Source of the DNA: Candidatus Gastranaerophilales bacterium
GTDB taxonomy: Bacteria > Cyanobacteriota > Vampirovibrionia > Gastranaerophilales > Gastranaerophilaceae
Reading direction: 5' to 3'
DNA: 64,000 bases
Assembly: GCA_944326535.1 (NCBI GenBank)
Contig: CALVEJ010000102.1
Coordinates: 1,231-65,230, forward strand
Of the stretch, positions 4,242 to 47,700 are shown one piece after another (the first letter of the stretch is position 1; every line of letters starts with the position of its first letter). A model generated the notes under the pieces. It ran no database searches and was not told the DNA's origin. It saw nothing but the letters and a program-made list of their open reading frames with translations. Both the position numbers and the translations under genes were made by a program.

Positions 4242-7200
4242 ATGCAAGTGATTAAGCGTGACGGTACAAAGGTACCATTTAGAACCAGAAAGATTGAAAA
4301 TGCCATCCGTAAAGCCGGATGGGTTGATGGTGCTACAGTAAAGAATATCTCTCGAACCATTATGGAAAAAGCTGAACAGTTTGGAGAACTTTCAGTAGAA
4401 ACCATTCAAGATCTGGTTGAAGACCTTCTTATGCAGTCTGATTATAAGAAGGTTGCTAAGGAATACATTCGTTACCGTAAGGTACGAGAGATGATTCGTA
4501 ATTCTGAGAAAGTCAATGAATCCATCCTCAGACTCATTGATGATAAGAATGAATATCTGGCTACGGAGAACTCCAACAAGAACCATCGTCTTGGTTCTAC
4601 GCAGAGAGACTACATCGCCGGTGAAGTCTCGAAGGATATCTCTCTTCGACTCCTTATGCCGAAGGAAGCTGTCGAAGCCCATAAGAAAGGAATCATTCAC
4701 CTCCATGATATGGATTACTTCATCCAGCATATGTTCAACTGTTTTAGCTCTGCTACCCGTTTTGTAACGGATACAGGTGTTCGAGCATTCAAGGATTGTT
4801 TTGATGGTGAAGAAGTCACCGTTCTTGATCGAGATGGTCAATGGCAAAAGGCCATTGTTCGTAAGTACGGCAAGCAATCTATGCAGTATGTTACGTTGCA
4901 GTCTGGTCGCACCACTAAAGTTGTAAAGTGCACTCCGAATCACCGATGGATTCTTAAAGATGGTTCAGTAACCACTTCTTTGAAAGAAGGGGATCGGCTG
5001 TTCTGCCTTCAAGACTCTACTTACGTTCCTCCCGAATTAAATGAGTATTTTTGCTTAGGCTTCATCCTTGGTGACGGTTCAGACGCCAGTGCCGACAACC
5101 GTAAGTATTGGCAGTTGCGCTTGTGCAACGAGAAGATTAAATACAAAGATGTATTTTTGAAGAATGGTTTCGCTATCAGCGGTACGTCTGATAATGATGT
5201 TCATCTTCTTAAGAGAACAAAAATTTCTAAGCAAGACTTCTTGACGTATAAGATGTGGAATCTTCTTCGTCATGAAGATCTAATCCAGTTATTCCACGGA
5301 CTGTATGCTGCAGATGGAGCCAAAGACCGGAACTTTATTGCTACTTCAGATGAACGTCTGGTTGAGCTAATTCAAGACATCTCTGCTGTTGCGGGTTACC
5401 ACATCACTCGTTGCAATCTGCACTATAGAGATACCAATTTCAAAAAGGGAGCAAAGCTCTATGAAATTGGTCTGATGAAGAGTCAACCTGCTAATCGTAA
5501 CTGGGTTGTTAAAAAGATTGAGCTTGATAAGCATACGGACGCTTACGATGCTTGGTGTGTGGAAGAACCTGTAACGCATACCTTTACTCTTGATGGAGGC
5601 ATCGTTACCGGCAACTGCTGTTTGGTTAATCTCGAAGACATTCTTCAGAATGGAACCGTCATCAATGGAACCATGATAGAAAAGCCTCACAGCTTCTCTA
5701 CAGCTTGCAATATCGCTACTCAGGTTGCCGCCATCATTGCGTCCAACCAATACGGTGGTCAGACAATGTCTCTGGCCCATCTGGCTCCTTTTGTTGAAGT
5801 CAGTCGTCAGAAAATCAAGCAGGAAGCTATTGCTGATGGTTTGGCTGTCAGTCTTAATGAAGCAGCTTTGAATGAGTACATTGAGAGCCAAGTAAAGAGA
5901 GAGATTGCTCGTGGCGTACAGATGATTCAGTATCAGATCAATACTCTCAATAGCTCCAATGGTCAAACTCCCTTCATCACTATCTGGGCATATCTCAATG
6001 AAGCCAAGAACCAGCAGGAAAAGGAAGACTTGGCTCTCATCATTGAAGAAGTCTTCAAGCAGCGTATTCAGGGCGTGAAGAACGAGGTTGGTCAGTGGGT
6101 CTCTCCCGCCTTCCCCAAGATCATCTATGCCTTGGAAGAAGACAACTGCAAGAAAGGTACCGAATATTGGTGGCTTACCGAACTGGCAGCGAAGTGTACT
6201 GCCAAGCGATTAGTTCCCGACTATATCTCTGAGAAGAAGATGATTGAGCTCAAGGGAGCTTGCTTCCCTTCAATGGGTTGTCGTTCTTTCCTTTCTCCGT
6301 GGAAGGATAAGGACGGAAAGCTCAAGTTCTACGGAAGATTCAATCAAGGCGTTGTGACACTTAATCTCCCCTATATTGCTTTGCTGGCTTGGGAAGATGC
6401 GAAGATCGTTGATGAAGACATCGTAGACATCTTCTGGGATGTTCTTGATAAGTATGCTGAGATTGCTCATACCGCTCTTCAGGCTCGACATGCTCGTCTT
6501 CTCAATACGCCTGTAGAGACTTCTCCTCTTCATTGGATGCACGGAGCTATAGCAAGACTACCGAAGGGATCCAACTTCAATGAACTTCTCTTTGGTGGTT
6601 ATTCAACGATTTCCCTTGGTTATGCCGGTATCTATGAAACCGTGAAGGTTCTTATTGGTCAGTCTCATACGACTCCTGATGGCAACAGACTGGCTCTTCA
6701 GATCCTCAAGAAACTGAACGACTACTGTGACAAGTGGAAAGCTGAGGAGAATATCGGGTATTCCGTCTATGGTTCTCCAATTGAATCCACTACCTACAAG
6801 TTTGCTCAGGCTATCCAAAGAAACTTCGGAACTATTCCTGACATATCAGATCATGGATATATCACTAATAGCTACCATGTAAATGTCAGAGAGAAGATTG
6901 ATCCGTTCACTAAATTAAAGATTGAATCTGATTTTCAAGCTTTAAGCCAAGGTGGTTGTATCTCTTATATTGAAACAGCCAATCTTCAGAATAATATTCC
7001 TGCCGTTCTGGAAGTTATTAAGTTCATTTACGATAATATTATGTATGCTGAACTTAATACTAAGTCTGACTTCTGTCAGGTTTGCGGTTCAACAGATGAG
7101 ATTAAAATTGTTGAAGACAATGGCAAACTCGTTTGGGAATGTCAGTATTGTGGTAACCGAGATCAGTCCAAAATGAATGTTACAAGACGTACGTGCGGGT

Positions 7201-7292
7201 ACCTCGGAAGCAATTTCTGGAACCAAGGAAGAACTGAAGAGATTAAAGATCGCTACGTTCATCTTGGTGAAACAGAAAAGATGGAATTATGA
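4242..7292 (+). CDS. nrdD: Anaerobic ribonucleoside-triphosphate reductase (class III), interrupted by an intein
   Basis: N-terminal ATP-cone (VIKRDG..FR..KI), HLHDMD..NC|CLVNLEDI, C-terminal Zn ribbon CQVCG..CQYCGN and glycyl-radical motif RRTCGYLGS. The extein length of about 724 aa is typical for NrdD. Confidence 0.95.
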   Translation: MQVIKRDGTKVPFRTRKIENAIRKAGWVDGATVKNISRTIMEKAEQFGELSVETIQDLVEDLLMQSDYKKVAKEYIRYRKVREMIRNSEKVNESILRLIDDKNEYLATENSNKNHRLGSTQRDYIAGEVSKDISLRLLMPKEAVEAHKKGIIHLHDMDYFIQHMFNCFSSATRFVTDTGVRAFKDCFDGEEVTVLDRDGQWQKAIVRKYGKQSMQYVTLQSGRTTKVVKCTPNHRWILKDGSVTTSLKEGDRLFCLQDSTYVPPELNEYFCLGFILGDGSDASADNRKYWQLRLCNEKIKYKDVFLKNGFAISGTSDNDVHLLKRTKISKQDFLTYKMWNLLRHEDLIQLFHGLYAADGAKDRNFIATSDERLVELIQDISAVAGYHITRCNLHYRDTNFKKGAKLYEIGLMKSQPANRNWVVKKIELDKHTDAYDAWCVEEPVTHTFTLDGGIVTGNCCLVNLEDILQNGTVINGTMIEKPHSFSTACNIATQVAAIIASNQYGGQTMSLAHLAPFVEVSRQKIKQEAIADGLAVSLNEAALNEYIESQVKREIARGVQMIQYQINTLNSSNGQTPFITIWAYLNEAKNQQEKEDLALIIEEVFKQRIQGVKNEVGQWVSPAFPKIIYALEEDNCKKGTEYWWLTELAAKCTAKRLVPDYISEKKMIELKGACFPSMGCRSFLSPWKDKDGKLKFYGRFNQGVVTLNLPYIALLAWEDAKIVDEDIVDIFWDVLDKYAEIAHTALQARHARLLNTPVETSPLHWMHGAIARLPKGSNFNELLFGGYSTISLGYAGIYETVKVLIGQSHTTPDGNRLALQILKKLNDYCDKWKAEENIGYSVYGSPIESTTYKFAQAIQRNFGTIPDISDHGYITNSYHVNVREKIDPFTKLKIESDFQALSQGGCISYIETANLQNNIPAVLEVIKFIYDNIMYAELNTKSDFCQVCGSTDEIKIVEDNGKLVWECQYCGNRDQSKMNVTRRTCGYLGSNFWNQGRTEEIKDRYVHLGETEKMEL
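4740..5615 (+). mobile_element. Intein (292 aa) with a LAGLIDADG homing endonuclease domain inside NrdD
   Basis: It begins CFSSATRFVTDTG (block A), has TPNH (block B) and two LAGLIDADG motifs (LGFILGDGS, LYAADGAKD), and ends ..HTFTLDGGIVTGN followed by +1 Cys. Removing it restores HMFN-CCLVNL. Confidence 0.85.
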
Positions 7293-32571: not shown

Positions 32572-33654
32572 TTACTTCTTAAACCTTGTAAAAAATTTAC
32601 CTTGAAATGGGTAAGCAACATTACCGATGCTGTCATACGGGACAGAATAAATACGATATCCATCATCCAGTTTGAAAGTTAATCTAAATTCATCTTCTTC
32701 CGTATGACTCAATGTTCCATTCCATGAAGGAAACTTTGTCTTCTTCAATAAGAACTCATCATCGGGGAATACTTCATAACAATATTCCTTCAGTTCTCTC
32801 TTGTAGTATCTGGCATCTTCACCATATATATTGTGCTTGGCAATATTCGGATAGTTGAAGATTGACCAGGATTGGAAGTAATCGGTATTGAAGAAGCAAT
32901 CTGTCTTATTCTTGTTCTTGGTTCCAAGCAGATACAGTTCATTAAATGTACTAACCCAAGTCCACTTCATCGTGAAGTTGATGTACCAACCCAGTTCAGC
33001 CGCAATATTGAGATCTAGATTGAAGAGTTTCTTAGCGGCATCCTTATAGACTTGAGCAAATTCCTTAGCTTGTTCTTCAGTAAGTTTAGGGCCAAAGGGA
33101 CCGATTACTGAAGAAAGAAATTTCACCAGCTCAAAGTTATATTGAGCATATGCTTCATGGAAGAAGATGGAACCAAAGAGTTGATCAGCACACCAACCAT
33201 TGGTGATGACATCAGTATCTACTGAACCAAGTTCCTTTCTCCAATGTTTGACTTCCTTGATGTTGTATTCATTATCTTTAAGGAAGTGATAAAGCTTGGG
33301 ATTTTCCTGAACAGATCCGTCATCGTGGAGAATCAGGAGATCATCCTTATGGATACCGTTCTTGATGAGAGCCAGAACAATAGAAGTGGAATCAACACCT
33401 CCGCTCCATTGAGTAACAATCTTCTTACCCAGGAAGTCTTGAGCTCTTTTATCCATAAGCTCTTTAAGAGGAGTGTCCTTTGGTTCAGGAATAGGATCTA
33501 CCGTATCAATCCAGTTGAAGTCAGAGTATTCATTCAAGACATTAAATCTGTCACGAACCTGTCTTCCGGAGAACAGTTGACAAGCAAAGGTAAAAGGAGT
33601 GATTAGGTCCTCAAGAAGACAGGGAATTGATTGTGCAACGATCAGTTTTGACAT
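32572..33654 (-). CDS. PP-loop (SGGxDS) ATP-pyrophosphatase superfamily protein
   Basis: KKIVTQWSGGVDSTSIVLAL at about residue 80 is the N-type ATP-PPase P-loop. The rest of the protein has no motif I can assign. Confidence 0.6.
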   Translation of the reverse strand: MSKLIVAQSIPCLLEDLITPFTFACQLFSGRQVRDRFNVLNEYSDFNWIDTVDPIPEPKDTPLKELMDKRAQDFLGKKIVTQWSGGVDSTSIVLALIKNGIHKDDLLILHDDGSVQENPKLYHFLKDNEYNIKEVKHWRKELGSVDTDVITNGWCADQLFGSIFFHEAYAQYNFELVKFLSSVIGPFGPKLTEEQAKEFAQVYKDAAKKLFNLDLNIAAELGWYINFTMKWTWVSTFNELYLLGTKNKNKTDCFFNTDYFQSWSIFNYPNIAKHNIYGEDARYYKRELKEYCYEVFPDDEFLLKKTKFPSWNGTLSHTEEDEFRLTFKLDDGYRIYSVPYDSIGNVAYPFQGKFFTRFKK

Positions 33655-34007
33655 GGCAGATATATAACTTCCTCAACGTCAGCGTAGTGATACAAATCTT
33701 TGATGAATTCACTGACTTCTTTCTTTGTAATATTAACTTTGAATCCCTGGATCGGAATCTGAAGAGTAGGAACAATCTCAAAGAATTCTTCAGACTTTTC
33801 TTTTAACTTATCAATATCCAGTCTGTCCGTATCATCAATGATGTCAGCCTTAACAAGCTTAGGCTTATACATATTGAATACAGGAACCAGAGAAGCAGCT
33901 ACCATAGCATATTGACTCTCGGAATAAGATCCAGGAGACATAAGCTTAATCATATGCTTTGCCAATACATATAACAGTTTGTTCTTATTTACTTTCATCT
34001 TCTTCAA
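33642..34007 (-). CDS. Hypothetical protein
   Basis: ORF track entry that overlaps both neighbours. Confidence 0.55.
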   Translation of the reverse strand: MKKMKVNKNKLLYVLAKHMIKLMSPGSYSESQYAMVAASLVPVFNMYKPKLVKADIIDDTDRLDIDKLKEKSEEFFEIVPTLQIPIQGFKVNITKKEVSEFIKDLYHYADVEEVIYLPCQN

Positions 34008-34617
34008 TTAAGAAAGGAATATGAAGATTATAGTTTGTGCATTGGCTTAATGAGATGTTCTCAATTCTTTTATCAAGCCAACCAGCTAAATATCTATTCA
34101 AATCAGTAAGAGATGAATAGTAATAGGTCTGATATCCATCCAGACTTTTAAGGACCAAAGTACAAGCTTTCTCTTTGCCTCTGATGCTTTCTAAAGCTTT
34201 ATAAGAAGCAATGGTCTTGGGACCTACCATCCCGTCTTCACTGATGAGCGGATAAAGCTTTCCGGCGTTGGAGAGATTGTTTAGGATCCGTTGGAACCAA
34301 AGGGAAACTCTGGCTGTACCTACATTGACTCCTGCATCTATGAGCTTATGAGCAATAGCAGGGTTTACATCTATCATTAAATCAAAATGAGGTTCTCTAA
34401 CATAGAGAGTCTCATAGATTTCAATAGCCATCTCTTTGGTAAGATCCTCGATCCTTCCGGTATATCCGTATTCTCTGGCTACATTCTCAGTAATGCCATA
34501 TTTGGTCTTTCCACCCGGATCATAAGGATCATCAGTATATCCACCTTCAACAAGAATAACGGCAGATAGAATAGCCGTGATAATGGCTGAACTAGTTGCC
34601 GCTAATTTCTTGTTCAT
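33985..34617 (-). CDS. Endolysin, GH108 N-acetylmuramidase with an N-terminal signal-anchor (SAR-type) and a PG-binding C-terminal domain
   Basis: EGGYTDDPYDPGGKTKYGIT is the GH108 signature. The N-terminus is hydrophobic (LAATSSAIITAILSAVILV). N4 gp61 belongs to the same family. Confidence 0.9.
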   Translation of the reverse strand: MNKKLAATSSAIITAILSAVILVEGGYTDDPYDPGGKTKYGITENVAREYGYTGRIEDLTKEMAIEIYETLYVREPHFDLMIDVNPAIAHKLIDAGVNVGTARVSLWFQRILNNLSNAGKLYPLISEDGMVGPKTIASYKALESIRGKEKACTLVLKSLDGYQTYYYSSLTDLNRYLAGWLDKRIENISLSQCTNYNLHIPFLIEEDESK

Positions 34618-34879
34618 GTTGGATCTGAGCTTCTAAAAGCTGTTTCTGAAGCTGATGAACTTCCTCAGCACGTTTGTTTCGTTTGTGTTGATAGAAGAGG
34701 TTCACTAAAAAACCAATACCTGTTGTAGCAACGCCGATGATAGTAAGCACTTCATTATTAGAAAGAGACCCGACAATAGAGGTAGCAGCTCCTCCTCCCA
34801 TACCCCATTTAACCGAGCTGTTTGCTACCAAAGCATCTGAGAAATCTCTCAGGTCCCCAATTTCTGACATCTTAAGCAC
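34592..34879 (-). CDS. Holin-like membrane protein
   Basis: 95 aa with hydrophobic segments followed by a highly charged C-terminus (QHKRNKRAEE..). It lies directly upstream of the endolysin and overlaps it. Confidence 0.6.
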   Translation of the reverse strand: MLKMSEIGDLRDFSDALVANSSVKWGMGGGAATSIVGSLSNNEVLTIIGVATTGIGFLVNLFYQHKRNKRAEEVHQLQKQLLEAQIQHEQEISGN

Positions 34880-36235: not shown

Positions 36236-36442
36236 ATGGAACAGACAAAGACTAACCCAAGACTGCTGACACGTAATGAAGTTGCCGCCATGCTGGGAGT
36301 CTCACGACGTACCGTATACAATGCTGTTGAACGGGGTGAATTTCCTGCTCCCATCGACATCTTCGGTATGGCTCGTTGGGAAGAGCAGACTGTGCTAGAC
36401 TTCATCAAGAAGGCTAAGAAGCATAAGCCTCTCTATAGCTGA
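36236..36442 (+). CDS. AlpA/excisionase-family helix-turn-helix protein
   Basis: LLTRNEVAAMLGVSRRTVYNAVERGEFPAP is the Phage_AlpA/HTH_17 pattern. It is the only plus-strand gene in the late block. Confidence 0.7.
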   Translation: MEQTKTNPRLLTRNEVAAMLGVSRRTVYNAVERGEFPAPIDIFGMARWEEQTVLDFIKKAKKHKPLYS

Positions 36443-36466
36443 AAATAGAATCCTTCTTAACGAACA

Positions 36467-36502
36467 AGCCCTTTCAGATCATCCTGAAAGGGCTTTATTT
36501 TT
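36467..36502 (+). terminator. Intrinsic terminator after the HTH gene, facing the end of the minus-strand paralog array
   Basis: 11-bp stem AGCCCTTTCAG/CTGAAAGGGCT, then TTATTTTT. Confidence 0.75.
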
Positions 36503-36518
36503 GATTACTTAGGTTCAG

Positions 36519-36908
36519 CTACCTGAGGGCAGAGGCCTTAATATATAGCGAAAGTGTTTGATTTACATTTGATTTAAATAATGGTAATAAATCAAATACG
36601 TTTTCTTCTGTAATTGAAATTTGCACTTCAGGAAAGTAAAGTTCTTCAATTCTAGGGTCCCACTCACTTGGGTATACTTCTGCTGCGACGATAGCAGACG
36701 GCATAAATCCTGATGCAAAAGTTATACAATATGAGTAACCTGAGGAATTAACTGCAAGCCCCGTAAGCCCTAGCGAAGGATTCAGTTTCCCAATCAAATT
36801 CTCTGTATCATTTAAATAACCAAAAGCCTTGCCTACTCTTCCAATAGTAAGGCTGGTTTTAAAATAGTTATTATTAAGAGGAGACAACATCAACTCTTTA
36901 TTCAGCAT
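36519..36908 (-). CDS. MLNKELLL-family paralog 3
   Basis: It starts MLNKELML, preceded by GGGAGGTGG. The body shows remote similarity to paralog 1 (LT[VI]G, GY.[FL]N, S.YS blocks). Confidence 0.65.
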   Translation of the reverse strand: MLNKELMLSPLNNNYFKTSLTIGRVGKAFGYLNDTENLIGKLNPSLGLTGLAVNSSGYSYCITFASGFMPSAIVAAEVYPSEWDPRIEELYFPEVQISITEENVFDLLPLFKSNVNQTLSLYIKASALR

Positions 36909-36942
36909 CATGCCACCTCCCTAAAGAAGGTGGCGTTGGATA

Positions 36943-37311
36943 TTACTGCTGAAGGATTATTTTGATTATTGCGTTTTCTGGGATAGGATTCGTTCCACCA
37001 AAACTGAAATATCCAAGCCAGTCTGATGAAAGCGCTGAATCGTTCATGCTTGCTGTAACAGATTTCACAGATGCGGTGGAACTTTGTACATACACCTTGA
37101 ATTGTGAAACGTTTAATCCAGGCCAGTGCATTGATGACTTTTCTGAAGTGACAGAGAATTGAATTTTCGTGCCCGTAGATCCTTTTAGATCTACGATTTC
37201 TATGTACCCCGAAGCATTGCACGAAGTTCCACGAGAGTTTTCTGTCTCTATGATGAAGACGGGAGTTTCCAAAACTTCTCTCGCTATTAAAAGCAGTTCT
37301 TTGTTCAGCAT
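36943..37311 (-). CDS. MLNKELLL-family paralog 2
   Basis: It starts MLNKELLL at the internal Met, with GGAGGG 8 nt upstream. Confidence 0.65.
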   Translation of the reverse strand: MLNKELLLIAREVLETPVFIIETENSRGTSCNASGYIEIVDLKGSTGTKIQFSVTSEKSSMHWPGLNVSQFKVYVQSSTASVKSVTASMNDSALSSDWLGYFSFGGTNPIPENAIIKIILQQ

Positions 37312-37362
37312 GAGAGAACCCTCCAATATTGAAGAGCTCTCCGAAGGGGTTTCTTAATCTTC

Positions 37363-37764
37363 TTAGGGGGGGGGGAGGGTTAATCCTATGTAAATATCTA
37401 TAGTTTTGCCCACATCATCCTCCGTGAAATACATAACATCATGCTTAATATATTTAGTACCCTCACCAGTTTCATATGTGAGGGCAATTGTTTCTTTGTC
37501 TTTTCTTTTCAAATACAATGTGCGCTCTGGAAAACTATCATAATTAGAAAATATAACTTCAGTATAACGGCTAGAACCACTATAACTAAATGATCTAATA
37601 GCCGCAATCGTCTTTCCATTTAACAAATGATCTGACAGTTCCCCCCAAGAACCATAAAAGTTATTAAATCCATAACCATTGAGGTCATAAGACCGATAAT
37701 CACCCACAGTCAGTTTTCTCCAACCGCTCACAAACTGTTGGAGTAAAAGTTCTTTATTCAGCAT
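37363..37764 (-). CDS. MLNKELLL-family paralog 1
   Basis: It starts MLNKELLL, with its ATG overlapping the upstream stop (ATGCTGA). It ends LTLPPP-stop inside a C10 run. Confidence 0.65.
   Translation of the reverse strand: MLNKELLLQQFVSGWRKLTVGDYRSYDLNGYGFNNFYGSWGELSDHLLNGKTIAAIRSFSYSGSSRYTEVIFSNYDSFPERTLYLKRKDKETIALTYETGEGTKYIKHDVMYFTEDDVGKTIDIYIGLTLPPP
37366..37375. repeat. G10 (C10 on the coding strand) homopolymer abutting the stop codon of paralog 1
   Basis: Read directly: TCTTA-GGGGGGGGGG-AGGG. Confidence 0.9.
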
Positions 37765-38000
37765 TCCCCATACCCCGCAGGAAGTTGTTTTCTTTCAAGC
37801 TCACTTTCATAAGCTTGCTTACAATGCTGATCTTGCCAGAAGAACAAAGCATCAAGAATATGCACCGGCCAAGATCTATCACCTTGAAGATGATGTCTCC
37901 ATGCTCTGGCACTTAATGTCTCGTCTGCCATTCCCCAAAAGAACGTATTGATCAGTTGATCAATGGCAACGAGAACTTGAAAATAATCAGGATGTTTCAT
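37758..38000 (-). CDS. Hypothetical small protein
   Basis: ORF track entry. It is translationally coupled to paralog 1. Confidence 0.55.
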   Translation of the reverse strand: MKHPDYFQVLVAIDQLINTFFWGMADETLSARAWRHHLQGDRSWPVHILDALFFWQDQHCKQAYESELERKQLPAGYGEC

Positions 38001-38044: not shown

Positions 38045-38245
38045 TTACTTCATCGAAGCCTTTACAGACTTAATGTAGTAGATAGTTTTCCAAATATCCT
38101 TGAGACAGTGAATATCTGTAGATGAAAGCTCATCAACAGACTTATCATTCATACGCTCAAGTTTCTTACGAAGTAGAGCCATGGATTCATCCATTTCTAC
38201 CTCAAGCCAAGATTTTTCTTCAACCATATGCATGCTCCGAGGCAA
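38045..38245 (-). CDS. Hypothetical small protein
   Basis: ORF track entry. Confidence 0.5.
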   Translation of the reverse strand: MPRSMHMVEEKSWLEVEMDESMALLRKKLERMNDKSVDELSSTDIHCLKDIWKTIYYIKSVKASMK

Positions 38246-38561
38246 TACGCTTAATGGAAGCTATGTCAGCTTCATCAAAGTTATAACCAAGAATATTTAA
38301 TTTGCCTGAGGTTTCCAATCCTGACTTGGCAGCCTCTTCCAATTTATCTATATCCAGTAAATCATCCTTTGTAATAAGCCCCATGGTTTTCATAAGAGGA
38401 GTATATACAGTCAGTTTTTCTTGAATAAAGACTGGAAGAAGATACTTAGCAGCACCAACACCAAAGGCTAAAAGAGATCCTTGATTTTGAACTTTTGGTT
38501 TCAGTTCCCTATCAACATACTTCATAAGAATATTGGGAACCTGATCCAGAGAAACTAACAT
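38220..38561 (-). CDS. Hypothetical protein
   Basis: ORF track entry. Confidence 0.55.
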   Translation of the reverse strand: MLVSLDQVPNILMKYVDRELKPKVQNQGSLLAFGVGAAKYLLPVFIQEKLTVYTPLMKTMGLITKDDLLDIDKLEEAAKSGLETSGKLNILGYNFDEADIASIKRIASEHAYG

Positions 38562-38574
38562 AGTAATCCTTTAA

Positions 38575-39198
38575 TTAGGCAGTAGGCGTAGTTGTTGTAG
38601 GAGCTGTCCAGTTATTATACCGAGGCATAACTTCAGGACAAATTGCAGAAGTCGAAATAGTGGTTTGGGTAATCTTGCCGACCAGAGCCTGCAAGCCAGC
38701 AATAGCCGTTGAGTTGGCTTCACAGCAACATTTAGCGGCGGAAGCAACTTGATCAATCTTGCCGTTAAGTGCCAGACCTTGTTCACGAATCTGTCCTTGG
38801 AGAAGTTGTTCACGAAGTTCAGCCTTTTCGCCGGCACACTTCTGCTGTTCTTCAAGTCTGGCAATATTAACTCGATTATTGGCGGCTTCTTCTGCCAACG
38901 GTTTAATAAAAGCATACAACTCAGTTCTGAGTTCTTTATCGTTTGCTACCGTTTGATTAAATGCACTGACAAGATTAGCATTAGCAACCTTTTCAGCCTC
39001 TAATGCTTGAACTTTCGCTTGAAGTTCTGACACATACTGAAGTTCAGCACCGGCTCCAATGCGGGCACCATTACAACCACCGAACAAACCTCCGAGAAGA
39101 CCATTACCGCAGTTGTTATTTAACAGCCCCAAAGCAGTACCAGCAATACCAAGTCCTAAGCCCGTACCGGCAACGCCTTTTGATGCAAACTCACCCAT
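38575..39198 (-). CDS. Gly-zipper / coiled-coil / Cys-cluster protein (tail-module, function unknown)
   Basis: N-terminal GVAGTGLGLGIAGTALGLL..GGLFGG, a central heptad-like region and C-terminal KCCCEAN. Confidence 0.6.
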   Translation of the reverse strand: MGEFASKGVAGTGLGLGIAGTALGLLNNNCGNGLLGGLFGGCNGARIGAGAELQYVSELQAKVQALEAEKVANANLVSAFNQTVANDKELRTELYAFIKPLAEEAANNRVNIARLEEQQKCAGEKAELREQLLQGQIREQGLALNGKIDQVASAAKCCCEANSTAIAGLQALVGKITQTTISTSAICPEVMPRYNNWTAPTTTTPTA

Positions 39199-39315: not shown

Positions 39316-39828
39316 TTAGATCCCTACGTTAGCCAAACTTACTTCTAAAGTATCTGGATCTGCTTCATAAGGAATTGTCCAGAGTTTTCCCATCTGAAGC
39401 ATTGCTTGAGATAAAGCCTTCTGCATTTGTTCAACTGTAACCGTAGCCACAGTATTGTCAGCAAGAACCCAGACCGTAGATTTCATACCGGTAATCGAAG
39501 CCACTTCAAGAGCTCTAGCCATACGGGACTGAGAAGTTTCATCGCCGTCAAAGAGCATTCCATCCACGTCCACTTTAATGGCGGCAACCTGTTCAGCTCT
39601 TTGTTTCTTGGCTTCTTCCAGTTCCTGAGCGGCAATCTCTTCAGGAGTAGGTTCCGGTTCAGGCTCTTCCGTGTAGGTAACATCAAATTGTTCCCAGAAA
39701 GCCTTCTTTTCTTCATATTCTCCTGTTGGTTCAGGACCAAAGGCAGTATTTTCAGCCTTATCAATAGCTTGGCGAACTTCCCAAGAGTTTGAATACTCTT
39801 TTTCGTTATAAACGTACTTCTTAATCAT
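39316..39828 (-). CDS. Tail-fibre accessory protein (DUF4376-like C-terminus)
   Basis: The C-terminal ..DGDETSQSRMARAL..TVWVLADNTVATVTVEQMQKAL..W pattern resembles DUF4376. It lies directly downstream of the fibre genes. Confidence 0.5.
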   Translation of the reverse strand: MIKKYVYNEKEYSNSWEVRQAIDKAENTAFGPEPTGEYEEKKAFWEQFDVTYTEEPEPEPTPEEIAAQELEEAKKQRAEQVAAIKVDVDGMLFDGDETSQSRMARALEVASITGMKSTVWVLADNTVATVTVEQMQKALSQAMLQMGKLWTIPYEADPDTLEVSLANVGI

Positions 39829-40841
39829 TAACTTGGACTCACAAAATTAGCAATACCGAACGTACCGCACCAATGAACAACGAGAACACCTTTGGCGGCG
39901 ATTGTAGGAGCAGACCCACCAACCCATTTCCATGAAGAACCAAGGGTAACCGTAGCTGAGGCATTAGTAATGCCGATGGTCTTTGTCCATGTCTGACCAC
40001 TGGATCCATTGTTCACAGTGATCTTTACGGCACCCGTAATGCAGCATCCGTCTCTAGTCGTATTGCTAACGGTTAAGGCTGAGGATTGAGACTGAAGATT
40101 TTCATAACCACCAACATTTCCTCTGGATCCAGAGATCTTGATGTATGTACTGTCGTGGTTATGAGAAGAAGCAGCCTTGCCGTCCAGTGTGGTCTGAAGA
40201 TTCGTCACATCAGAAATAGCATGTGTATGAGCCTTGGGTGCAACACTTGTTGTATCCGCCTTAGCATTTAAAGCATCCTGAAGACCGGTAACATTACTGA
40301 TTTCATGTGTATGGCTTGTATTCGCCTTGCCTGCCAAAGCCGTATCAAGACCCGTCACTTCTGAAGTCGCGTGAGTATGTGTTGCATTGGCTTTACCGGC
40401 AAGCTCAGTCTTCGTGGCATAGGTAGCCGTAATAACATTGCCGGAAGCATCTTGAGAAGCCTTGACAGCATTTGTCGCATTGGTAGCATTGGTAGCCGTA
40501 TCAGCTGAAGTAGCATGAGTAGCATTGTCTGCTGTAGCCGCACTTTGAACCTTTTCACTTTTGGTAGCGTATGTAGAAGCCGCTTCACTCTTCGTCAGAT
40601 AATCGCCTGACGGCTGCTTGGTATTAATCGACTGCGTAAGCTCTGTCTTGGCAGCCTCAAGTTCAGCAAGAGAAGCTGTCTGGAAAGCACCTCCCGCTGT
40701 CGTACCGTCCATAATCACAGGACGATGTGTTTCCTTCACCACAAGGAGTTGACAATCAACCCCGGCAAAGTTAGCTAAGTTAGCAGTGGATACCTTTCTT
40801 TGAGCTTTGTCTAAATTAGGATCCACAGGAATATTTGCCAT
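39828..40841 (-). CDS. Tail fibre protein with HTH..VTGL repeat modules
   Basis: Repeated (A/T)HTH(A/E)xS(E/N/D)VTGL(D/Q)xAL(A/N)GKA units, typical of the phage tail-fibre repeat. Confidence 0.75.
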   Translation of the reverse strand: MANIPVDPNLDKAQRKVSTANLANFAGVDCQLLVVKETHRPVIMDGTTAGGAFQTASLAELEAAKTELTQSINTKQPSGDYLTKSEAASTYATKSEKVQSAATADNATHATSADTATNATNATNAVKASQDASGNVITATYATKTELAGKANATHTHATSEVTGLDTALAGKANTSHTHEISNVTGLQDALNAKADTTSVAPKAHTHAISDVTNLQTTLDGKAASSHNHDSTYIKISGSRGNVGGYENLQSQSSALTVSNTTRDGCCITGAVKITVNNGSSGQTWTKTIGITNASATVTLGSSWKWVGGSAPTIAAKGVLVVHWCGTFGIANFVSPS

Positions 40842-40865
40842 ATATCTTTATCCTCTATTTATCTG

Positions 40866-43631
40866 TTAGACGCCGACTTCTCCAAGATCGGCAAGTTCAC
40901 TCCAATTAAGCGGTTCTGATTTCAATCTGTAAGCACTCAGTGTCGTTGAGAGATCTGTAACCTGACTCACAGTATGGTTATGTGTAGCATTAGCCTTACC
41001 ATTTAAGGTAGTAGTCAATCCGGTAATCTGATCCTGAGTATGTGTATGCGACGTATTCGCTTTGCCTGCTAAACCTGACGTAAGAGAAGCTTGTGTTGCA
41101 TACGTTGAAGGAATATTTATCAACGTACTTAGATAGATTCTCTTACTGGATCCAATGGAGAAGGTAACATCGTCATGCCCCATGACGATCTGTGTATATT
41201 CAGAAGTTCCCTTTCTGGACAGGAATGTTAAGAGAGGCTCCCAAGAAGAAATCTCTGTTCCGATATTGGTAAGAACAGGTTCAGAACCATTGGTGCCAGT
41301 TACCTGAATGGAAGTACTGGTAGACCCATTGGAAGGAATATTCAGCTTCTTCAAAACATACTTATTAGGATCAAAGTCAGTAACCTGATCAACCGTATGC
41401 GTATGACTTGTATTCGCTTTACCGGCAAGACCTTGCGTTAAAGCCGTATTGGTAGCGTAGTCACCTGTAGGCTGCTTACTGGCTAAAGCCGCATCCAAGC
41501 CAGTAACTTCTGACGTAGCGTGCGTATGAGCTGAAGGAGTAAATGTAGAAGGAACTCCTGTCAGACCTGACCAAGAAGTAGTACCCGGAACACCCTGAGG
41601 ACCCTGATCGCCTTTATCGCCCTTATCACCCTTCGGAATGCCAATGGCAAAGGAAGGAGCTTCAGCAGTACCGCTTTTAACAACCGTAGGAGAAGCACCA
41701 GCCGCAAGACCCGTAACCGAAATGGAAATAGCAGGAGTAACGCCTGTAGGACCTTGAGGACCTTCAGCACCTGTATCCCCCTTGGCTCCTTGAACAGCAC
41801 CGATGGAAGTCCAAGCATTGGCAACCGTATCCCAGATATAAACGGTCGGAGGTGTTGTATCCGTTGTGGCATATACGTCACCTTCAGCACCAGTAGCATG
41901 AGCAGACTGAAGAGCTGAAAGAGAAGCATAAGTACCCTTAATCGTCAAACCATTTCCTGGCTCACCCTTAGGACCTTGAATACCTTGTTTGCCTTGAGGA
42001 CCTTGATCACCCACATCACCCTTCAGACCTTGAGGAATACCCAAGGCAATGGCAATGGATCCTTCATTAGGCGTGATAGTGGCAGTAGCCTGAGATCCAG
42101 GAGTAAGAGTCTGAACCGAGACAGTGGGATTCTGAAGAGCTGTAAGAGCACCTTCAAAGTCATCCTGAATGGCTTCAGCCGCTGTTTTAGCCGCTTCAGC
42201 TTTGGTTGCCGCTTGTTCAGCTAACTGGCGTTGTGAGCTGGCAGCAGTCTGCGAAGATTTTGCTTCACTAGCTGATTGAGCCGCAGCAGTTTCAGAAGCT
42301 TTGGCGTTTGTTTCACTAGTCTTGGCATTCGTCTCTGAAGTCTTCGCCGCAGTCTGAGAAGCCTTAGCTTGAGTAACACTGTTAGCTGCAGCAGAAGCAC
42401 TGGCAGAAGCAGATTCAGCACTGTTAGACGCACTGGAAGCATGTGATTCAGCTGTAGTCTTAGCAGATTCAGCACCTGTCTTGGCTGTTTCAGCAGCAGT
42501 CTGAGCATCTTTGGCAGCAGTGGCGCTATTACTCGCCGCTGTAGCAGATTCGCTCGCAGCAGTAGCCTGTTTTTCAGCTTCAGCCTGAGCTGTTTCAGCC
42601 GCTTCTTGAGCAGTTAAGGCTGTAGAGCTGGCAGACTGAGCAGTGGTAGCAAAGCTTCTGGCAGTATCAGCGTAAGTTTTCGCTTGATCTCGATATGTCC
42701 AGGCATCATTGGCTGAAGTTGTAGCCGTATCCGCTTGTTTCTTGGCTTCTGTAGCTGAAGTCTGAGCAAGAGTCGCTTGTTCCGTAGCCGTCTGAGCAGA
42801 CTGAACCGCTTCATTTCTGGCTTTCAGTGTAGCTTCTGCATCTTCCTTAATCTGAGGGAACATGCCCTGCAAAGCTTCAATGTCGAAGAGCAGATTATTG
42901 AGATTTTGAGAAACTCTGACGATATGTTCAATGTTTACGGAGTCTGTGAGAACATGATTGATGTTCATTGCCACCGTATAAATTGAACCGCCTGTAATCA
43001 CTTCAGGCAACGGAGTATCAACACCGACTTCACCCCAGTCAGGCATGGTGACCGGAGAGGTAGACCCTGTGAAGTCGTTGGCAATAGTGTTGATATAGGT
43101 GATGTTGTCGGCAGTAGTGTTAACATCTTCAATATTATCGGCAACCGTTACTACTGCTTGACCCAGGGCTTCCATATCCTGAGCAACTTGCTCAATGGTA
43201 GCCTGTCTTTCAATGATGTCTTCGTGCGCTGTATCGACAGCAGTCTTTACCAGAGCGGACTGTTCAGCATAATACTTGGAACCATAGAGCTCACCTTCTA
43301 CGGGAGTCTGTGTTTCAATCGCCCATCTCTTGGCGAGAGCTGAATAATTCTCGGCTTCTTGTGCCGCTGTCTCAGCTTTAGTCGCATTATCTTCTGCACC
43401 GAGGATCGTATCCAGATTGTCCCAAACATCCTGTACCTTATCAGCAGCATCTTGGACATTCTGAATTTCTTCCACATGTTCCGACACAAAGATCACTGAA
43501 TCTTTGAAGTCATAAACAGAGGAAATTTCCTTTAGGTGGAGATATACGGCTTTGACCACCGGATAGGCTCGATCAATCATTACACTGACTGTTCGATCCA
43601 CCGGTCCTAATGTATTTCCAATCAAACCCAA
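40866..43631 (-). CDS. Large tail fibre/appendage protein (coiled Ala/Ser/Thr-rich rod, collagen-like G-X-Y stretches, HTH..VTGL repeats)
   Basis: GDVGDQGPQGKQGIQGPKGEPG, GAKGDTGAEGPQGPTG and GDKGDKGDQGPQGVPG triplet runs. It has a long AxxSAxxA repeat region and the same SHTH..VTGL units as 39828-40841. Confidence 0.8.
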   Translation of the reverse strand: MGLIGNTLGPVDRTVSVMIDRAYPVVKAVYLHLKEISSVYDFKDSVIFVSEHVEEIQNVQDAADKVQDVWDNLDTILGAEDNATKAETAAQEAENYSALAKRWAIETQTPVEGELYGSKYYAEQSALVKTAVDTAHEDIIERQATIEQVAQDMEALGQAVVTVADNIEDVNTTADNITYINTIANDFTGSTSPVTMPDWGEVGVDTPLPEVITGGSIYTVAMNINHVLTDSVNIEHIVRVSQNLNNLLFDIEALQGMFPQIKEDAEATLKARNEAVQSAQTATEQATLAQTSATEAKKQADTATTSANDAWTYRDQAKTYADTARSFATTAQSASSTALTAQEAAETAQAEAEKQATAASESATAASNSATAAKDAQTAAETAKTGAESAKTTAESHASSASNSAESASASASAAANSVTQAKASQTAAKTSETNAKTSETNAKASETAAAQSASEAKSSQTAASSQRQLAEQAATKAEAAKTAAEAIQDDFEGALTALQNPTVSVQTLTPGSQATATITPNEGSIAIALGIPQGLKGDVGDQGPQGKQGIQGPKGEPGNGLTIKGTYASLSALQSAHATGAEGDVYATTDTTPPTVYIWDTVANAWTSIGAVQGAKGDTGAEGPQGPTGVTPAISISVTGLAAGASPTVVKSGTAEAPSFAIGIPKGDKGDKGDQGPQGVPGTTSWSGLTGVPSTFTPSAHTHATSEVTGLDAALASKQPTGDYATNTALTQGLAGKANTSHTHTVDQVTDFDPNKYVLKKLNIPSNGSTSTSIQVTGTNGSEPVLTNIGTEISSWEPLLTFLSRKGTSEYTQIVMGHDDVTFSIGSSKRIYLSTLINIPSTYATQASLTSGLAGKANTSHTHTQDQITGLTTTLNGKANATHNHTVSQVTDLSTTLSAYRLKSEPLNWSELADLGEVGV

Positions 43632-47244: not shown

Positions 47245-47318
47245 ATTATATATAAATAAAATAAGAAGTCAATACATATAAATAAAAAAAAAAAAGAGAG
47301 TCTACTTCTAGACTCTCT
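47245..47318 (-). promoter_or_regulatory. Module A: 10-bp hairpin plus T12 terminator followed by TTGACT-N16-TATAAT
   Basis: Stem AGAGAGTCTA/TAGACTCTCT (47295-47318), A12 on the plus strand (47284-47295), -35 at 47267-47272 and -10 at 47245-47250 (minus strand). Confidence 0.5.
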
Positions 47319-47690: not shown

Positions 47691-47700
47691 CCCCCCCCCC
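47691..47700. repeat. C10 homopolymer in the non-coding region upstream of the first early gene
   Basis: Read directly: GAGCTAT-CCCCCCCCCC-ATTTCAC. Confidence 0.9.

What the first reader, a model, noticed from the sequence alone, without database searches (positions are those of the whole stretch)
36519..37764. Three tandem, highly diverged paralogs that all begin with the octapeptide MLNKELLL
Three consecutive minus-strand genes of about 125 aa start MLNKELLL, MLNKELLL and MLNKELML. The codons differ synonymously (AAT/AAC, GAA/GAG, CTT/CTG/TTG), so the peptide rather than the DNA is conserved. The remaining roughly 115 residues are beta-rich and have diverged almost beyond recognition. Only paralogs 1 and 3 share short blocks (LT[VI]G, GY.[FL]N, S.YS, [IV].F[SA]S). 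Each has its own SD or is translationally coupled (ATGCTGA overlap), and the SD of paralog 3 lies in a 7-bp hairpin. A conserved N-terminal tag on a diversifying body suggests interchangeable modules that dock to a common partner. That partner could be a tail or baseplate adaptor, a chaperone or an export/packaging signal. The genes lie just downstream (in the minus-strand direction) of the tail-fibre region.
Basis: seen in the sequence. Interest (0 to 1): 0.65.

Follow-up and report, generated by a model that had tools for sequence, protein, structure and literature searches.

The report
Homopolymer-switched phage gene cassette array
Three small phage genes that begin with the same eight amino acids belong to a mobile, swappable gene array, in which a run of C's ending the first gene sets the frame ribosomes continue in and so, most likely, which downstream gene is translated.

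Summary
Three consecutive minus-strand ORFs (P1 37363-37764, P2 36943-37311, P3 36519-36908) start MLNKELLL, MLNKELLL and MLNKELML in an N4-like podophage from chicken gut. The tag is under protein-level constraint (pN/pS 0.24; Leu7 and Leu8 each use six codons). It is disordered in a confident AF2 model of P1 and is kept across about 47 distant P1-family clusters.

"Paralogs" is only partly right: without the tag, the P2 and P3 bodies are not detectably related to P1. The genes are exchangeable cassettes. They occur in backbones of 34-60% GC, and mosaic breakpoints fall inside the tags.

The larger finding is new. P1 ends in a C10 run, after which the three frames stop (a) at once, (b) on P2's ATG, or (c) on P3's ATG after crossing all of P2 in its -1 frame. 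That frame is stop-free in 11 arrays and three unrelated gene types (0 of 309 risk codons end in T, against 35% elsewhere; p=4e-49). It shows no amino-acid constraint. Hairpins sequester the SDs of P2 and P3.

Best reading: a homopolymer-driven three-way translational switch. Protein function is unknown; a tail-fibre-linked role is likely. No expression data exist.

The parts
37758..38000 (-). 80-aa gene (phrog_3342, function unknown). Its TGA overlaps the P1 start (ATGCTGA).
   Evidence: The same gene precedes the array in L003, L004, L009, L010, L011 and L093.
37363..37764 (-). P1, the leader gene of the array (133 aa). Tag MLNKELLL (37741-37764), then an all-beta domain ending ...DVGKTIDIYIGLTLPPP.
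   Evidence: AF2 pLDDT 87.8, pTM 0.82, residues 1-10 disordered. 47 representative clusters in the family. No Pfam, PHROG, NCBIfam, PADLOC or PDB match.
37366..37379 (-). Homopolymer tract CCCTC10 (C10 = 37366-37375) encoding LPPP just before the P1 stop. This is the frame selector.
   Evidence: 0.016 C/G runs of at least 10 nt are expected in the window. Relatives carry C7-C11 or G8-G13 at the same place. The X2 contig lacks 5 nt here.
37305..37364 (-). Frame b after the tract: 19 codons (KKIKKPLRRALQYWRVLSC), then a TGA at 37305-37307 that lies inside ATGCTGA of the P2 start.
   Evidence: This long form is the annotated state in L001, L004, L005, L007 and P0005, P0009, P0010, P0015-17.
37313..37342 (-). 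Junction A hairpin (13 bp, -17.7 kcal/mol). The P2 SD GGAGG is paired with the upstream CUCUUC.
   Evidence: 95.8% of cells paired; 3 compensatory pairs; 1 of 500 shuffles as high.
36943..37311 (-). P2, the slot-2 cassette (122 aa). Tag at 37288-37311. Beta-rich body unrelated to P1 by sequence.
   Evidence: AF2 is low confidence (pLDDT 60.7). The same type sits in slot 2 of L005, L007, L010, L011 and L093.
36908..37366 (-). Frame c: a stop-free track of 152 codons from the tract through junction A and all of P2 (P2's -1 frame). It ends at TGA 36908-36910, which overlaps the P3 start (ATGATG).
   Evidence: 0 stops against 10 expected for P2 (P=2e-6). Pooled over slot-2 genes, 0 of 309 risk codons end in T, p=4e-49.
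36912..36934 (-). Junction B hairpin (10 bp; GCCACCUUCU/GGGAGGUGGC). The P3 SD is paired.
   Evidence: 98% of cells paired; 1 compensatory pair; little variation.
36519..36908 (-). P3, the slot-3 cassette (129 aa; alternative start at 36911). Tag at 36885-36908.
   Evidence: The same type is in L007 slot 3 and L092.
36466..36495 (.). Bidirectional terminator-like hairpin closing the array, between P3 and the convergent AlpA-like gene.

Best explanation
The three ORFs are one copy of a mobile cassette array. It consists of a leader gene (P1) that ends in a C/G homopolymer, followed by exchangeable small genes that each start with the tag M-L-x-K-E-x-L-L.

Shown:
- After the tract, the three reading frames end at three defined places: frame a stops immediately; frame b stops 17-33 codons later in a codon overlapping the next gene's ATG; frame c stops about 150 codons later in a codon overlapping the ATG of the gene after that.
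- Frame c crosses the whole slot-2 gene in its -1 frame. It is kept free of stops by selection but carries no amino-acid constraint.
- The SD of each downstream cassette is locked in a stable hairpin next to its start codon.
- Tract length differs among close relatives, and all three states occur in assemblies.

Inferred:
- The frame taken after the tract decides where ribosomes coming from P1 terminate. That frame is set by tract length in the DNA, and possibly also by RNA-polymerase or ribosome slippage on CCC-CCC-CCC.
- The termination point in turn decides which hairpin is opened for termination-reinitiation. Frame a gives P1 only, frame b switches P2 on, and frame c switches P3 on while ribosomes run out of frame over the P2 start.
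- The array is therefore a stochastic three-way expression switch. The window itself is in state a.

More tentative:
- The disordered, protein-constrained tag is a common N-terminal docking or targeting peptide.
- The modules act in host interaction together with the tail-fibre module that the array usually accompanies.
For: Three-way layout: found in 11 arrays (window, L001, L003, L004, L005, L007, L009 poly-G, L010, L011, L092, L093 poly-G). It is rebuilt with poly-G and unrelated junction sequence in L009 and L093.

Stop-free -1 frame: slot-2 genes of three unrelated types have 0 stops where 6.7-10.3 are expected (P 1e-4 to 2e-6 each). P1 genes and the other slot-3 genes have 7-23 stops; L003's slot-3 gene (T7) also has none. 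Pooled, T-ending codons at risk sites are 0 of 309 against 34.7% elsewhere (p=4e-49), with 37% in control genes. Main-frame pN/pS is 0.24-0.6 and alt-frame pN/pS about 1-2. The X peptides are alike only at their junction-encoded ends.

Hairpins: -14 to -25 kcal/mol with the SD paired. Junction A has 3 compensatory pairs. Junction B is 98% paired.

All three states occur in assemblies. State a: window, L010, L011, L012, L093. State b: L001, L003, L004, L005, L007, L094. State c: the X2 contig (97% identical to the window, 5 nt shorter tract), the L009 264-aa ORF, the L092 289-aa ORF, P0040 and P0047.

Where P1 has no downstream cassette (L012), the other frames end after 5-9 codons.

Cassette exchange: the same slot holds different types. 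Breakpoints lie at 36895, 37298 and 37770. The array has 40-49% GC in backbones of 34-60% GC.

Tag: pN/pS 0.24 with synonymous sites near saturation; disordered in AF2; kept in distant members.

Tail-fibre linkage.
Against: There is no expression evidence: no RNA runs and no proteomics. There are no raw reads, so tract-length heterogeneity within a population is untested. Length differences between assemblies could partly be fixed differences between lineages.

Exceptions exist. In L094 frame c closes after 106 codons, before the slot-3 start. At the second tract of L092 the long frame reads in-frame into the next gene.

The P2 stop lies only 11 nt from the first paired base of junction B. Ribosomes finishing P2 may therefore also open it, so P3 may not be exclusive to state c. 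Junction B shows little covariation.

In the 188-kb phages the array is not next to a recognisable tail-fibre module. A few family members lack the tag. No structural or sequence link ties any cassette to a known receptor-binding, chaperone or anti-defence family.
Confidence: 0.6

Rival explanations
1. The tract is a recoding site whose purpose is to make three C-terminal isoforms of P1: short, +19 aa basic tail, and +152 aa tail. This would resemble G/GT tail chaperones or T7 10A/10B. The positions of the stops at downstream start codons would then be incidental or secondary.
For: A C-run is a perfect X XXY YYZ slippery site, and PPP codons stall ribosomes (established knowledge). The frame-b tail is consistently basic and usually 17 codons long. 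Long P1-X ORFs exist in databases (P0040, P0047).
Against: The X tail has no amino-acid conservation (pN/pS about 1-2) and differs completely between slot-2 gene types. It looks like out-of-frame sequence (15% Arg; rich in Trp, Cys and His). The stops of frames b and c overlap the next start codons in almost every array, including arrays with unrelated junction sequences. When no cassette follows, the frames end after 5-9 codons (L012).
Confidence: 0.15
2. The tag is a virion- or capsid-targeting signal like the T4 internal-protein CTS. The cassettes would be diverse proteins packaged and ejected with the DNA (for example anti-defence proteins), rather than tail-fibre accessories.
For: [quoted passage not shown] N4-like phages do eject virion proteins such as vRNAP. 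Anti-defence-like genes (Sequestin, Tad2-like) lie near some arrays.
Against: The array works in very different virion types: N4-like, phages with a T7-like terminase, a 188-kb phage and a Sutterella prophage. One peptide is unlikely to fit all of their scaffolds. No LxE-type protease motif follows the tag. No PADLOC or anti-defence family match was found.
Confidence: 0.15
3. The shared N-terminus has no protein function. It would be a by-product of conserved junction DNA (translation-initiation region, embedded stop codon, recombination hot spot) that is homogenised by cassette exchange.
For: Codons 1-5 are nearly fixed at the DNA level (ATG CTG AAY AAA GAR). ATG-YTG-A must hold the upstream frame's stop. 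Breakpoints fall 13 nt into the tag.
Against: Leu7 and Leu8 are kept through six different codons each, including CTN/TTR switches. Synonymous sites are near saturation (pS 0.81) while pN/pS is 0.24 at the conserved positions. The tag persists in family members below 50% identity.
Confidence: 0.08
4. The open frame and the tract-length differences are chance or assembly artefacts.
For: Homopolymers are error-prone in sequencing. Only assembled contigs were available.
Against: p=4e-49 for avoidance of stop-creating codons, replicated in three unrelated gene types and 11 arrays from independent samples and assemblers. The X2 difference is a 5-nt deletion that includes a T, which is not a typical homopolymer miscall.
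Confidence: 0.02

Closest known systems
Hypermutable polyG tracts in Campylobacter (Fletchervirus) phages giving phase-variable receptor-binding-protein expression (Sorensen et al. 2021, Cell Rep 35:109214; cited in PMC10579305 and PMC10877375)
   Same: A lytic phage carries a G/C homopolymer inside a late gene in the host-interaction region, and tract length differs between close relatives. The likely result is phenotypic heterogeneity in the progeny. The habitat is also chicken gut.
   Different: There the tract switches the gene that contains it ON or OFF. Here all three frames have a designed end point, one frame is a stop-free track across a neighbouring gene, and the presumed output is a choice between downstream genes through translational coupling.
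MS2 lysis gene activation by frameshift and termination near its start (Kastelein 1982; Berkhout 1987; references B66 and B69 in PMC5009743), and classical coupling through SD-sequestering hairpins
   Same: A downstream start that cannot initiate on its own is activated by ribosomes that terminate next to it after reading another frame.
   Different: MS2 relies on rare spontaneous frameshifts in an RNA phage. Here a long homopolymer sets the frame, two alternative targets exist, and the conduit frame spans a whole gene.
Paramyxovirus P/V/W(D) co-transcriptional editing at a G run (PMC5009743: a stretch of the P gene 'translated in all three frames')
   Same: A homopolymer gives access to all three frames downstream of a common N-terminal part.
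   Different: That system makes three functional protein C-termini. Here the long alternative frame shows no protein-level constraint, and what is conserved is where it stops.
T4 internal proteins (IPI, IPII, IPIII, Alt) with the capsid targeting sequence (PMC3012670)
   Same: A short conserved N-terminal peptide sits on small, otherwise unrelated, rapidly exchanged proteins clustered in a plastic locus.
   Different: There is no evidence of packaging, no protease motif, and the array occurs in unrelated virion types. It works like a portable tag, but membership is not shown.
Host-recognition modules shared between a schitovirus and distant phage families (Alteromonas A5/V22; PMC10579305)
   Same: An N4-like phage shares a tail-fibre-linked module with unrelated phages by horizontal transfer.
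   Different: That module is a fibre plus a helical chaperone. The proteins here are small all-beta domains with no similarity to those chaperones.
Tail assembly chaperone G/GT -1 frameshift
   Same: A slippery site at the 3' end of a small late gene extends it into an overlapping frame.
   Different: In G/GT the extension is a conserved functional domain made at a fixed ratio. Here the extension is unconstrained in sequence, and there are two alternative extensions.

Membership tests
Simple-sequence-repeat phase-variable (contingency) locus | Homopolymer of at least 7-8 nt inside or at the end of a coding region | tested here: met
   C10 at 37366-37375. C7-C11 or G8-G13 in 12 related loci.
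Simple-sequence-repeat phase-variable (contingency) locus | Tract length differs between otherwise near-identical genomes, giving different frames | tested here: met
   The X2 contig is 97% identical over P1+P2 but has 5 nt fewer in the tract, which puts it in frame c. All three states occur among assemblies.
Simple-sequence-repeat phase-variable (contingency) locus | High-frequency reversible length change within a clonal population | not testable with these tools
   Only assembled contigs are held for the runs that contain the locus.
Translational coupling by termination-reinitiation with a masked SD | Stop codon of the upstream frame overlaps or abuts the downstream start codon | tested here: met
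   ATGCTGA, ATGA, TGATG or TAATG at the ends of frames b and c in 11 arrays.
Translational coupling by termination-reinitiation with a masked SD | SD or start sequestered in a stable, conserved secondary structure | tested here: met
   Predicted hairpins of -14 to -25 kcal/mol. Junction A has 3 compensatory pairs and 96% pairing. Junction B has 98% pairing but weak covariation.
Translational coupling by termination-reinitiation with a masked SD | Downstream translation depends on upstream translation | not testable with these tools
   Needs reporter or ribosome-profiling experiments.
Programmed -1 ribosomal frameshift producing a functional fusion (G/GT type) | Trans-frame extension is a conserved protein sequence | tested here: not met
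   Alt-frame pN/pS is about 1-2 against 0.24-0.6 in the main frame. X peptides of different slot-2 types are unrelated except at the junction-encoded ends.
Programmed -1 ribosomal frameshift producing a functional fusion (G/GT type) | Stimulatory structure 5-9 nt downstream of the slippery site | tested here: not met
   The junction A hairpin begins 14 nt (most loci) to 23 nt (window) after the first base of the frame-a stop.
T4-type capsid targeting sequence proteins | Short conserved N-terminal peptide on otherwise diverse small proteins | tested here: met
T4-type capsid targeting sequence proteins | Prohead-protease cleavage motif (L/I-x-E) at the end of the peptide, and packaging into the head | tested here: inconclusive
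   The tag reads M-L-x-K-E (L-x-x-E), which is not the T4 motif by inspection. No protease gene was looked for systematically. Packaging is not testable.
Any curated protein family (Pfam, PHROGs, NCBIfam, PADLOC, PDB sequences) | Significant profile match | tested here: not met
Tail-fibre accessory or receptor-binding module | Conserved synteny with tail-fibre genes | tested here: met
   The array lies directly downstream of a fibre/PTR/DUF4376 (or Phage_tail_APC) block in the window, L003, L004, L009, L010, L012, L093 and L094. This is not so in the 188-kb phages.
Tail-fibre accessory or receptor-binding module | Structural similarity to a known fibre tip, adhesin or chaperone | tested here: not met
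   PDB: best E 0.07, TM about 0.3. BFVD: TM about 0.65, only to uncharacterized phage proteins. Tail-fibre-annotated hits are weak (TM 0.43-0.46, E 0.017-0.5).

The most novel reading that the evidence does not exclude
A phage-borne three-state translational selector. One hypermutable or slippery homopolymer routes ribosomes into one of three frames whose only selected property is where they stop, including a 150-codon 'ribosome track' laid through another gene. A clonal burst would then express alternative tagged cassette proteins (host-range or counter-defence bet-hedging). The whole device, tags included, would move as a unit between unrelated phages.
Probability: 0.45. Interest if true: 0.88.

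Novelty: new variant of a known kind. Interest (0 to 1): 0.78.

Why it matters
If the switch works as inferred, it would be a compact way for a virus to diversify the expression of alternative genes within one burst. It would need no invertases, retroelements or extra regulators. It would also be a clear case of an overlapping reading frame maintained by selection for ribosome passage rather than for its product. Overlapping-ORF predictors and genome annotators would misread that (several databases already hold the 230-290-aa 'fusion' ORFs).

The work also defines a new, widespread small-protein family (P1) and a portable eight-residue N-terminal tag, both with no annotation. These sit next to tail-fibre modules that move between phages of very different hosts, including a Sutterella prophage. 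The predictions are directly testable with reporters and locked-tract mutants.

Tried and rejected
- Family searches: Pfam, PHROGs, NCBIfam and PADLOC on the three proteins and their neighbours gave nothing for P1-P3.
- PDB: sequence profile search and Foldseek found no meaningful neighbour.
- BFVD: only uncharacterized phage proteins.
- P2 structure: the AF2 model is too poor to use (pLDDT 60.7), so no fold search was run on it.
- DNA similarity to known phages: none by megablast or blastn. The phage was placed only by protein similarity (MCP up to 58% identical to Schitoviridae).
- IMG/VR scan for junction B: only the 188-kb contig already in hand.
- GTDB genomes scan with the P1 profile: no relatives found.
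- RNA runs: none. DNA runs are held only as contigs, so neither expression nor tract heterogeneity could be tested.
- Literature: no paper combines homopolymer phase variation with translational coupling.
- Rejected, X as a conserved overlapping protein: no conservation and pN/pS of about 1 or above.
- Rejected, signal peptide or lipoprotein: by inspection the tag is too short and contains Lys-Glu.
- Rejected, all cassettes are one detectable superfamily: true for T4, T9 and P1b, but not for P2, P3, T5-T8.
Full report
**1. The observation**

The window is an N4-like (Schitoviridae-type) podophage. It encodes a 3,691-aa virion RNA polymerase, a major head protein, a portal and TerL. Its MCP is at most 58% identical to known schitoviruses, and it has no DNA similarity to any catalogued phage. 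It comes from a chicken-gut metagenome.

Between the tail-fibre genes (39828-43631) and the lysis genes (33985-34879) lie three consecutive minus-strand ORFs:
- P1, 37363-37764, starts MLNKELLL.
- P2, 36943-37311, starts MLNKELLL.
- P3, 36519-36908, starts MLNKELML.

A six-frame scan finds this motif at ORF starts nowhere else in the 64 kb. Outside the tag, P1 and P3 give only BLASTP E=0.003 over 62 residues that include the tag. P2 shares nothing but the tag with either. None of the three hits Pfam, PHROGs, NCBIfam or PADLOC.

**2. The tag is real, conserved and constrained at the protein level**

P1 has 17 relatives, P2 has 15 and P3 has 2 in the 5.8-billion-protein set, and all keep the tag. 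A profile search of 1.84 billion representatives finds 47 clusters of the P1 family. Most start ML[NK]K[ED]xLL and end DVGKTIxIYxGTTPPP. A few start directly at the first strand without the tag. One (P0069) has three domains in tandem.

Across 25 distinct tags from 10 loci, Leu2, Leu7 and Leu8 use 4-6 codons each. Synonymous sites are near saturation (pS 0.81). At positions 2, 4, 5, 7 and 8, pN/pS is 0.24.

AF2 folds P1 confidently (pLDDT 87.8, pTM 0.82) as a nine-strand all-beta domain. Only residues 1-10 fall below pLDDT 50. The fold has no PDB neighbour and matches only uncharacterized phage proteins in BFVD at TM about 0.65.

With the tag removed, a family HMM still recognises cassette types T4, T9 and P1b, but not the bodies of the window's P2 and P3. 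So the tag is a portable N-terminal element on bodies that are partly unrelated. 'Paralogs' is only partly justified.

**3. The genes are exchangeable cassettes in a mobile array**

The array occurs in several backbones:
- N4-like phages (window, L004, L009).
- A prophage-like element next to an integrase and tig (L003). Its Tig is 100% identical to Sutterella MAGs.
- Phages with T7-like terminases (L012, L094).
- Phages of about 188 kb that carry ThyX and FolD (L001, L005, L007, L092).
- 55-58% GC contigs (L010, L093).

The array has 40-49% GC in backbones of 34-60% GC. The first gene is a tract-bearing leader. It is P1, or in L093 a poly-G-ending type. The following slots hold different types in different phages, with 1 to 5 tagged genes per array.

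Contigs from other samples of the same study keep the window's P2 (9 differences in 404 nt) but replace P1 and P3 wholesale. The breakpoints are at 36895 and 37298, both 13 nt inside a tag, and at 37770. A dust-metagenome contig also breaks at 36895.

In most backbones the array directly follows a conserved block: tail fibre/PTR, DUF4376 (or Phage_tail_APC), and small genes of about 200, 111, 60 and 80 aa. Horizontal sharing of host-recognition modules that include a schitovirus has a precedent (PMC10579305).

**4. A three-way frame layout behind a homopolymer**

P1 ends ...LPPP*, encoded by CCCTC10 (37366-37379). Only 0.016 C/G runs of at least 10 nt are expected in the window. After the tract there are three frames:
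- Frame a stops at once (TAA 37363-37365). This is the window's state.
- Frame b reads 19 codons (KKIKKPLRRALQYWRVLSC) and stops at the TGA inside ATGCTGA of the P2 start.
- Frame c reads 152 codons through the junction and the whole of P2 in its -1 frame. It stops at the TGA overlapping the P3 start.

The same layout is found in 11 arrays: 1 codon, then 17-33 codons to the next ATG, then 149-161 codons to the ATG after that. In L009 and L093 it is rebuilt with a poly-G tract and unrelated junction sequence. Where nothing follows P1 (L012), the other frames end after 5-9 codons.

Exceptions: L094 frame c closes after 106 codons. At L092's second tract the long frame runs in-frame into the next gene.

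**5. Frame c is kept open by selection but is not a protein**

Slot-2 genes of three unrelated types (P2, T4, T6) have zero -1-frame stops where 6.7-10.3 are expected (P 1e-4 to 2e-6 each). P1 genes and the other slot-3 genes have 7-23; L003's slot-3 gene (T7) also has none.

Pooled over 11 slot-2 genes, codons preceding AA-, AG- or GA-starting codons end in T in 0 of 309 cases, against 34.7% at other sites (Fisher p=4e-49). Control cassette genes show 37%.

The main frames are under purifying selection (pN/pS 0.24-0.6). The overlapping frame is not (about 1-2). Its peptides resemble each other only at the junction-encoded ends and look like out-of-frame sequence. What is selected is that ribosomes in this frame reach the next start codon.

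**6. Masked ribosome-binding sites**

Immediately upstream of the P2 and P3 start codons, the SD (GGAGG) is paired with an anti-SD in hairpins of -14 to -25 kcal/mol.
- Junction A is 96% paired with three compensatory pairs (1 of 500 shuffles as high; slid controls 37-67%).
- Junction B is 98% paired with one compensatory pair but little variation.

The frame-a stop lies 14-23 nt before junction A, probably too far for a terminating ribosome to open it.

**7. All three states exist in nature**

- State a: window, L010, L011, L012, L093.
- State b: L001, L003, L004, L005, L007, L094, and many database proteins with the ...PPPKRKIKRTLRSRRVLSC tail.
- State c: the X2 contig (97% identical to the window over P1+P2, tract 5 nt shorter), the 264-aa ORF of L009, the 289-aa ORF of L092, P0040 and P0047.

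Tract lengths of C7 to C11 are seen. Whether length also varies within a population could not be tested, because only contigs are held. No RNA run contains the locus.

**8. Mechanism proposed**

Shown: the layout, the selection for a stop-free conduit, the masked SDs, the tract polymorphism, the cassette exchange and the protein-level tag.

Inferred: the frame taken after the tract fixes where P1's ribosomes terminate. That frame is set by DNA length, and possibly by RNA-polymerase slippage or by ribosome slippage on CCC-CCC-CCC, whose Pro-Pro-Pro stalls elongation (established knowledge).
- Frame a: P1 alone.
- Frame b: termination on the P2 ATG opens junction A and reinitiates P2.
- Frame c: ribosomes override the P2 start, open junction B and reinitiate P3.

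Because the P2 stop is only 11 nt from junction B, some P2-to-P3 coupling in state b cannot be excluded.

This logic extends the MS2 lysis-gene case (frameshift and termination activate an occluded start; references in PMC5009743). It also extends three-frame use after a homopolymer in paramyxovirus P genes, and it resembles polyG phase variation of receptor-binding proteins in Campylobacter phages (cited in PMC10579305). I found no description of this combination.

**9. What the proteins do remains open**

The tag behaves like a portable N-terminal signal. The closest analogue is the T4 internal-protein capsid targeting sequence (PMC3012670). However, the array functions in unrelated virion types and usually moves with a tail-fibre module. 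I therefore favour a docking peptide for host-interaction accessory modules over a capsid-packaging signal, with low confidence. The tandem three-domain relative P0069 hints that several such domains act together.

**10. Verdict**

- The locus is considerably more interesting than described, because the three genes are wired together by a homopolymer-selected three-frame device.

Noticed in passing
window 36236-36442 (+); L004 7981-10136; L009 7080-9185: An AlpA/HTH_17 gene converges on the array. In the close N4-like relatives L004 and L009, an integrase and an H-NS-like gene sit between it and the array. The window lacks them. This suggests N4-like phages with (remnants of) an integration module.
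   Followed up: partly
window 47691-47700 and 47284-47295: There is a second C10 run (only 0.016 runs of this length are expected) and an A12 run. Both lie in a 650-bp non-coding, AT-rich, TATATA-repeat region between divergent gene blocks. This could be a regulatory or genome-end region, and the tract could affect a promoter.
   Followed up: partly
window 38220-38561 (-) and 33642-34007 (-): The 113-aa gene upstream of the array and the 121-aa gene next to the endolysin are paralogous (BLASTP E=3e-6; shared LDIDKL-E motif). Neither has a known family.
   Followed up: partly
L011 1752-2165 (internal C11 at 1955-1965): A slot-3 cassette carries its own internal C11 run. One frame gives a plausible C-terminus (...VRVEVRL*). 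The assembled frame instead runs on to a stop overlapping the next cassette's ATG. So switches can be chained along an array (see also L092 and L094, each with two tracts).
   Followed up: partly
P0069 (405 aa): One distant family member has three P1-like domains in tandem in a single polypeptide without tags between them. This is a Rosetta-stone hint that separate cassette proteins may work as a multi-domain assembly.
   Followed up: no
L010 4559-4768, L093 2176-2397, L005 11842-12132: Anti-defence-type small genes lie close to the arrays in some relatives: Pfam Sequestin PF21825 just upstream of the 80-aa gene, and Tad2-like PF11195.
   Followed up: no
window 4242-7292 (+): The N4-like phage encodes a 1,016-aa NrdD-like anaerobic ribonucleotide reductase, which fits an anaerobic gut host.
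   Followed up: no
L003 9046-12507: The cassette-bearing element in L003 is integrated next to tig of an uncultured Sutterella (Tig 100% identical to Sutterella MAGs). The array there has 45% GC in a roughly 60% GC surrounding.
   Followed up: yes
window 38575-39198 (-): A 207-aa protein with a Gly-rich hydrophobic N-terminus, a long coiled coil and a Thr/Pro tail is conserved in the fibre-linked block of all N4-like and prophage loci. It has no family assignment.
   Followed up: no
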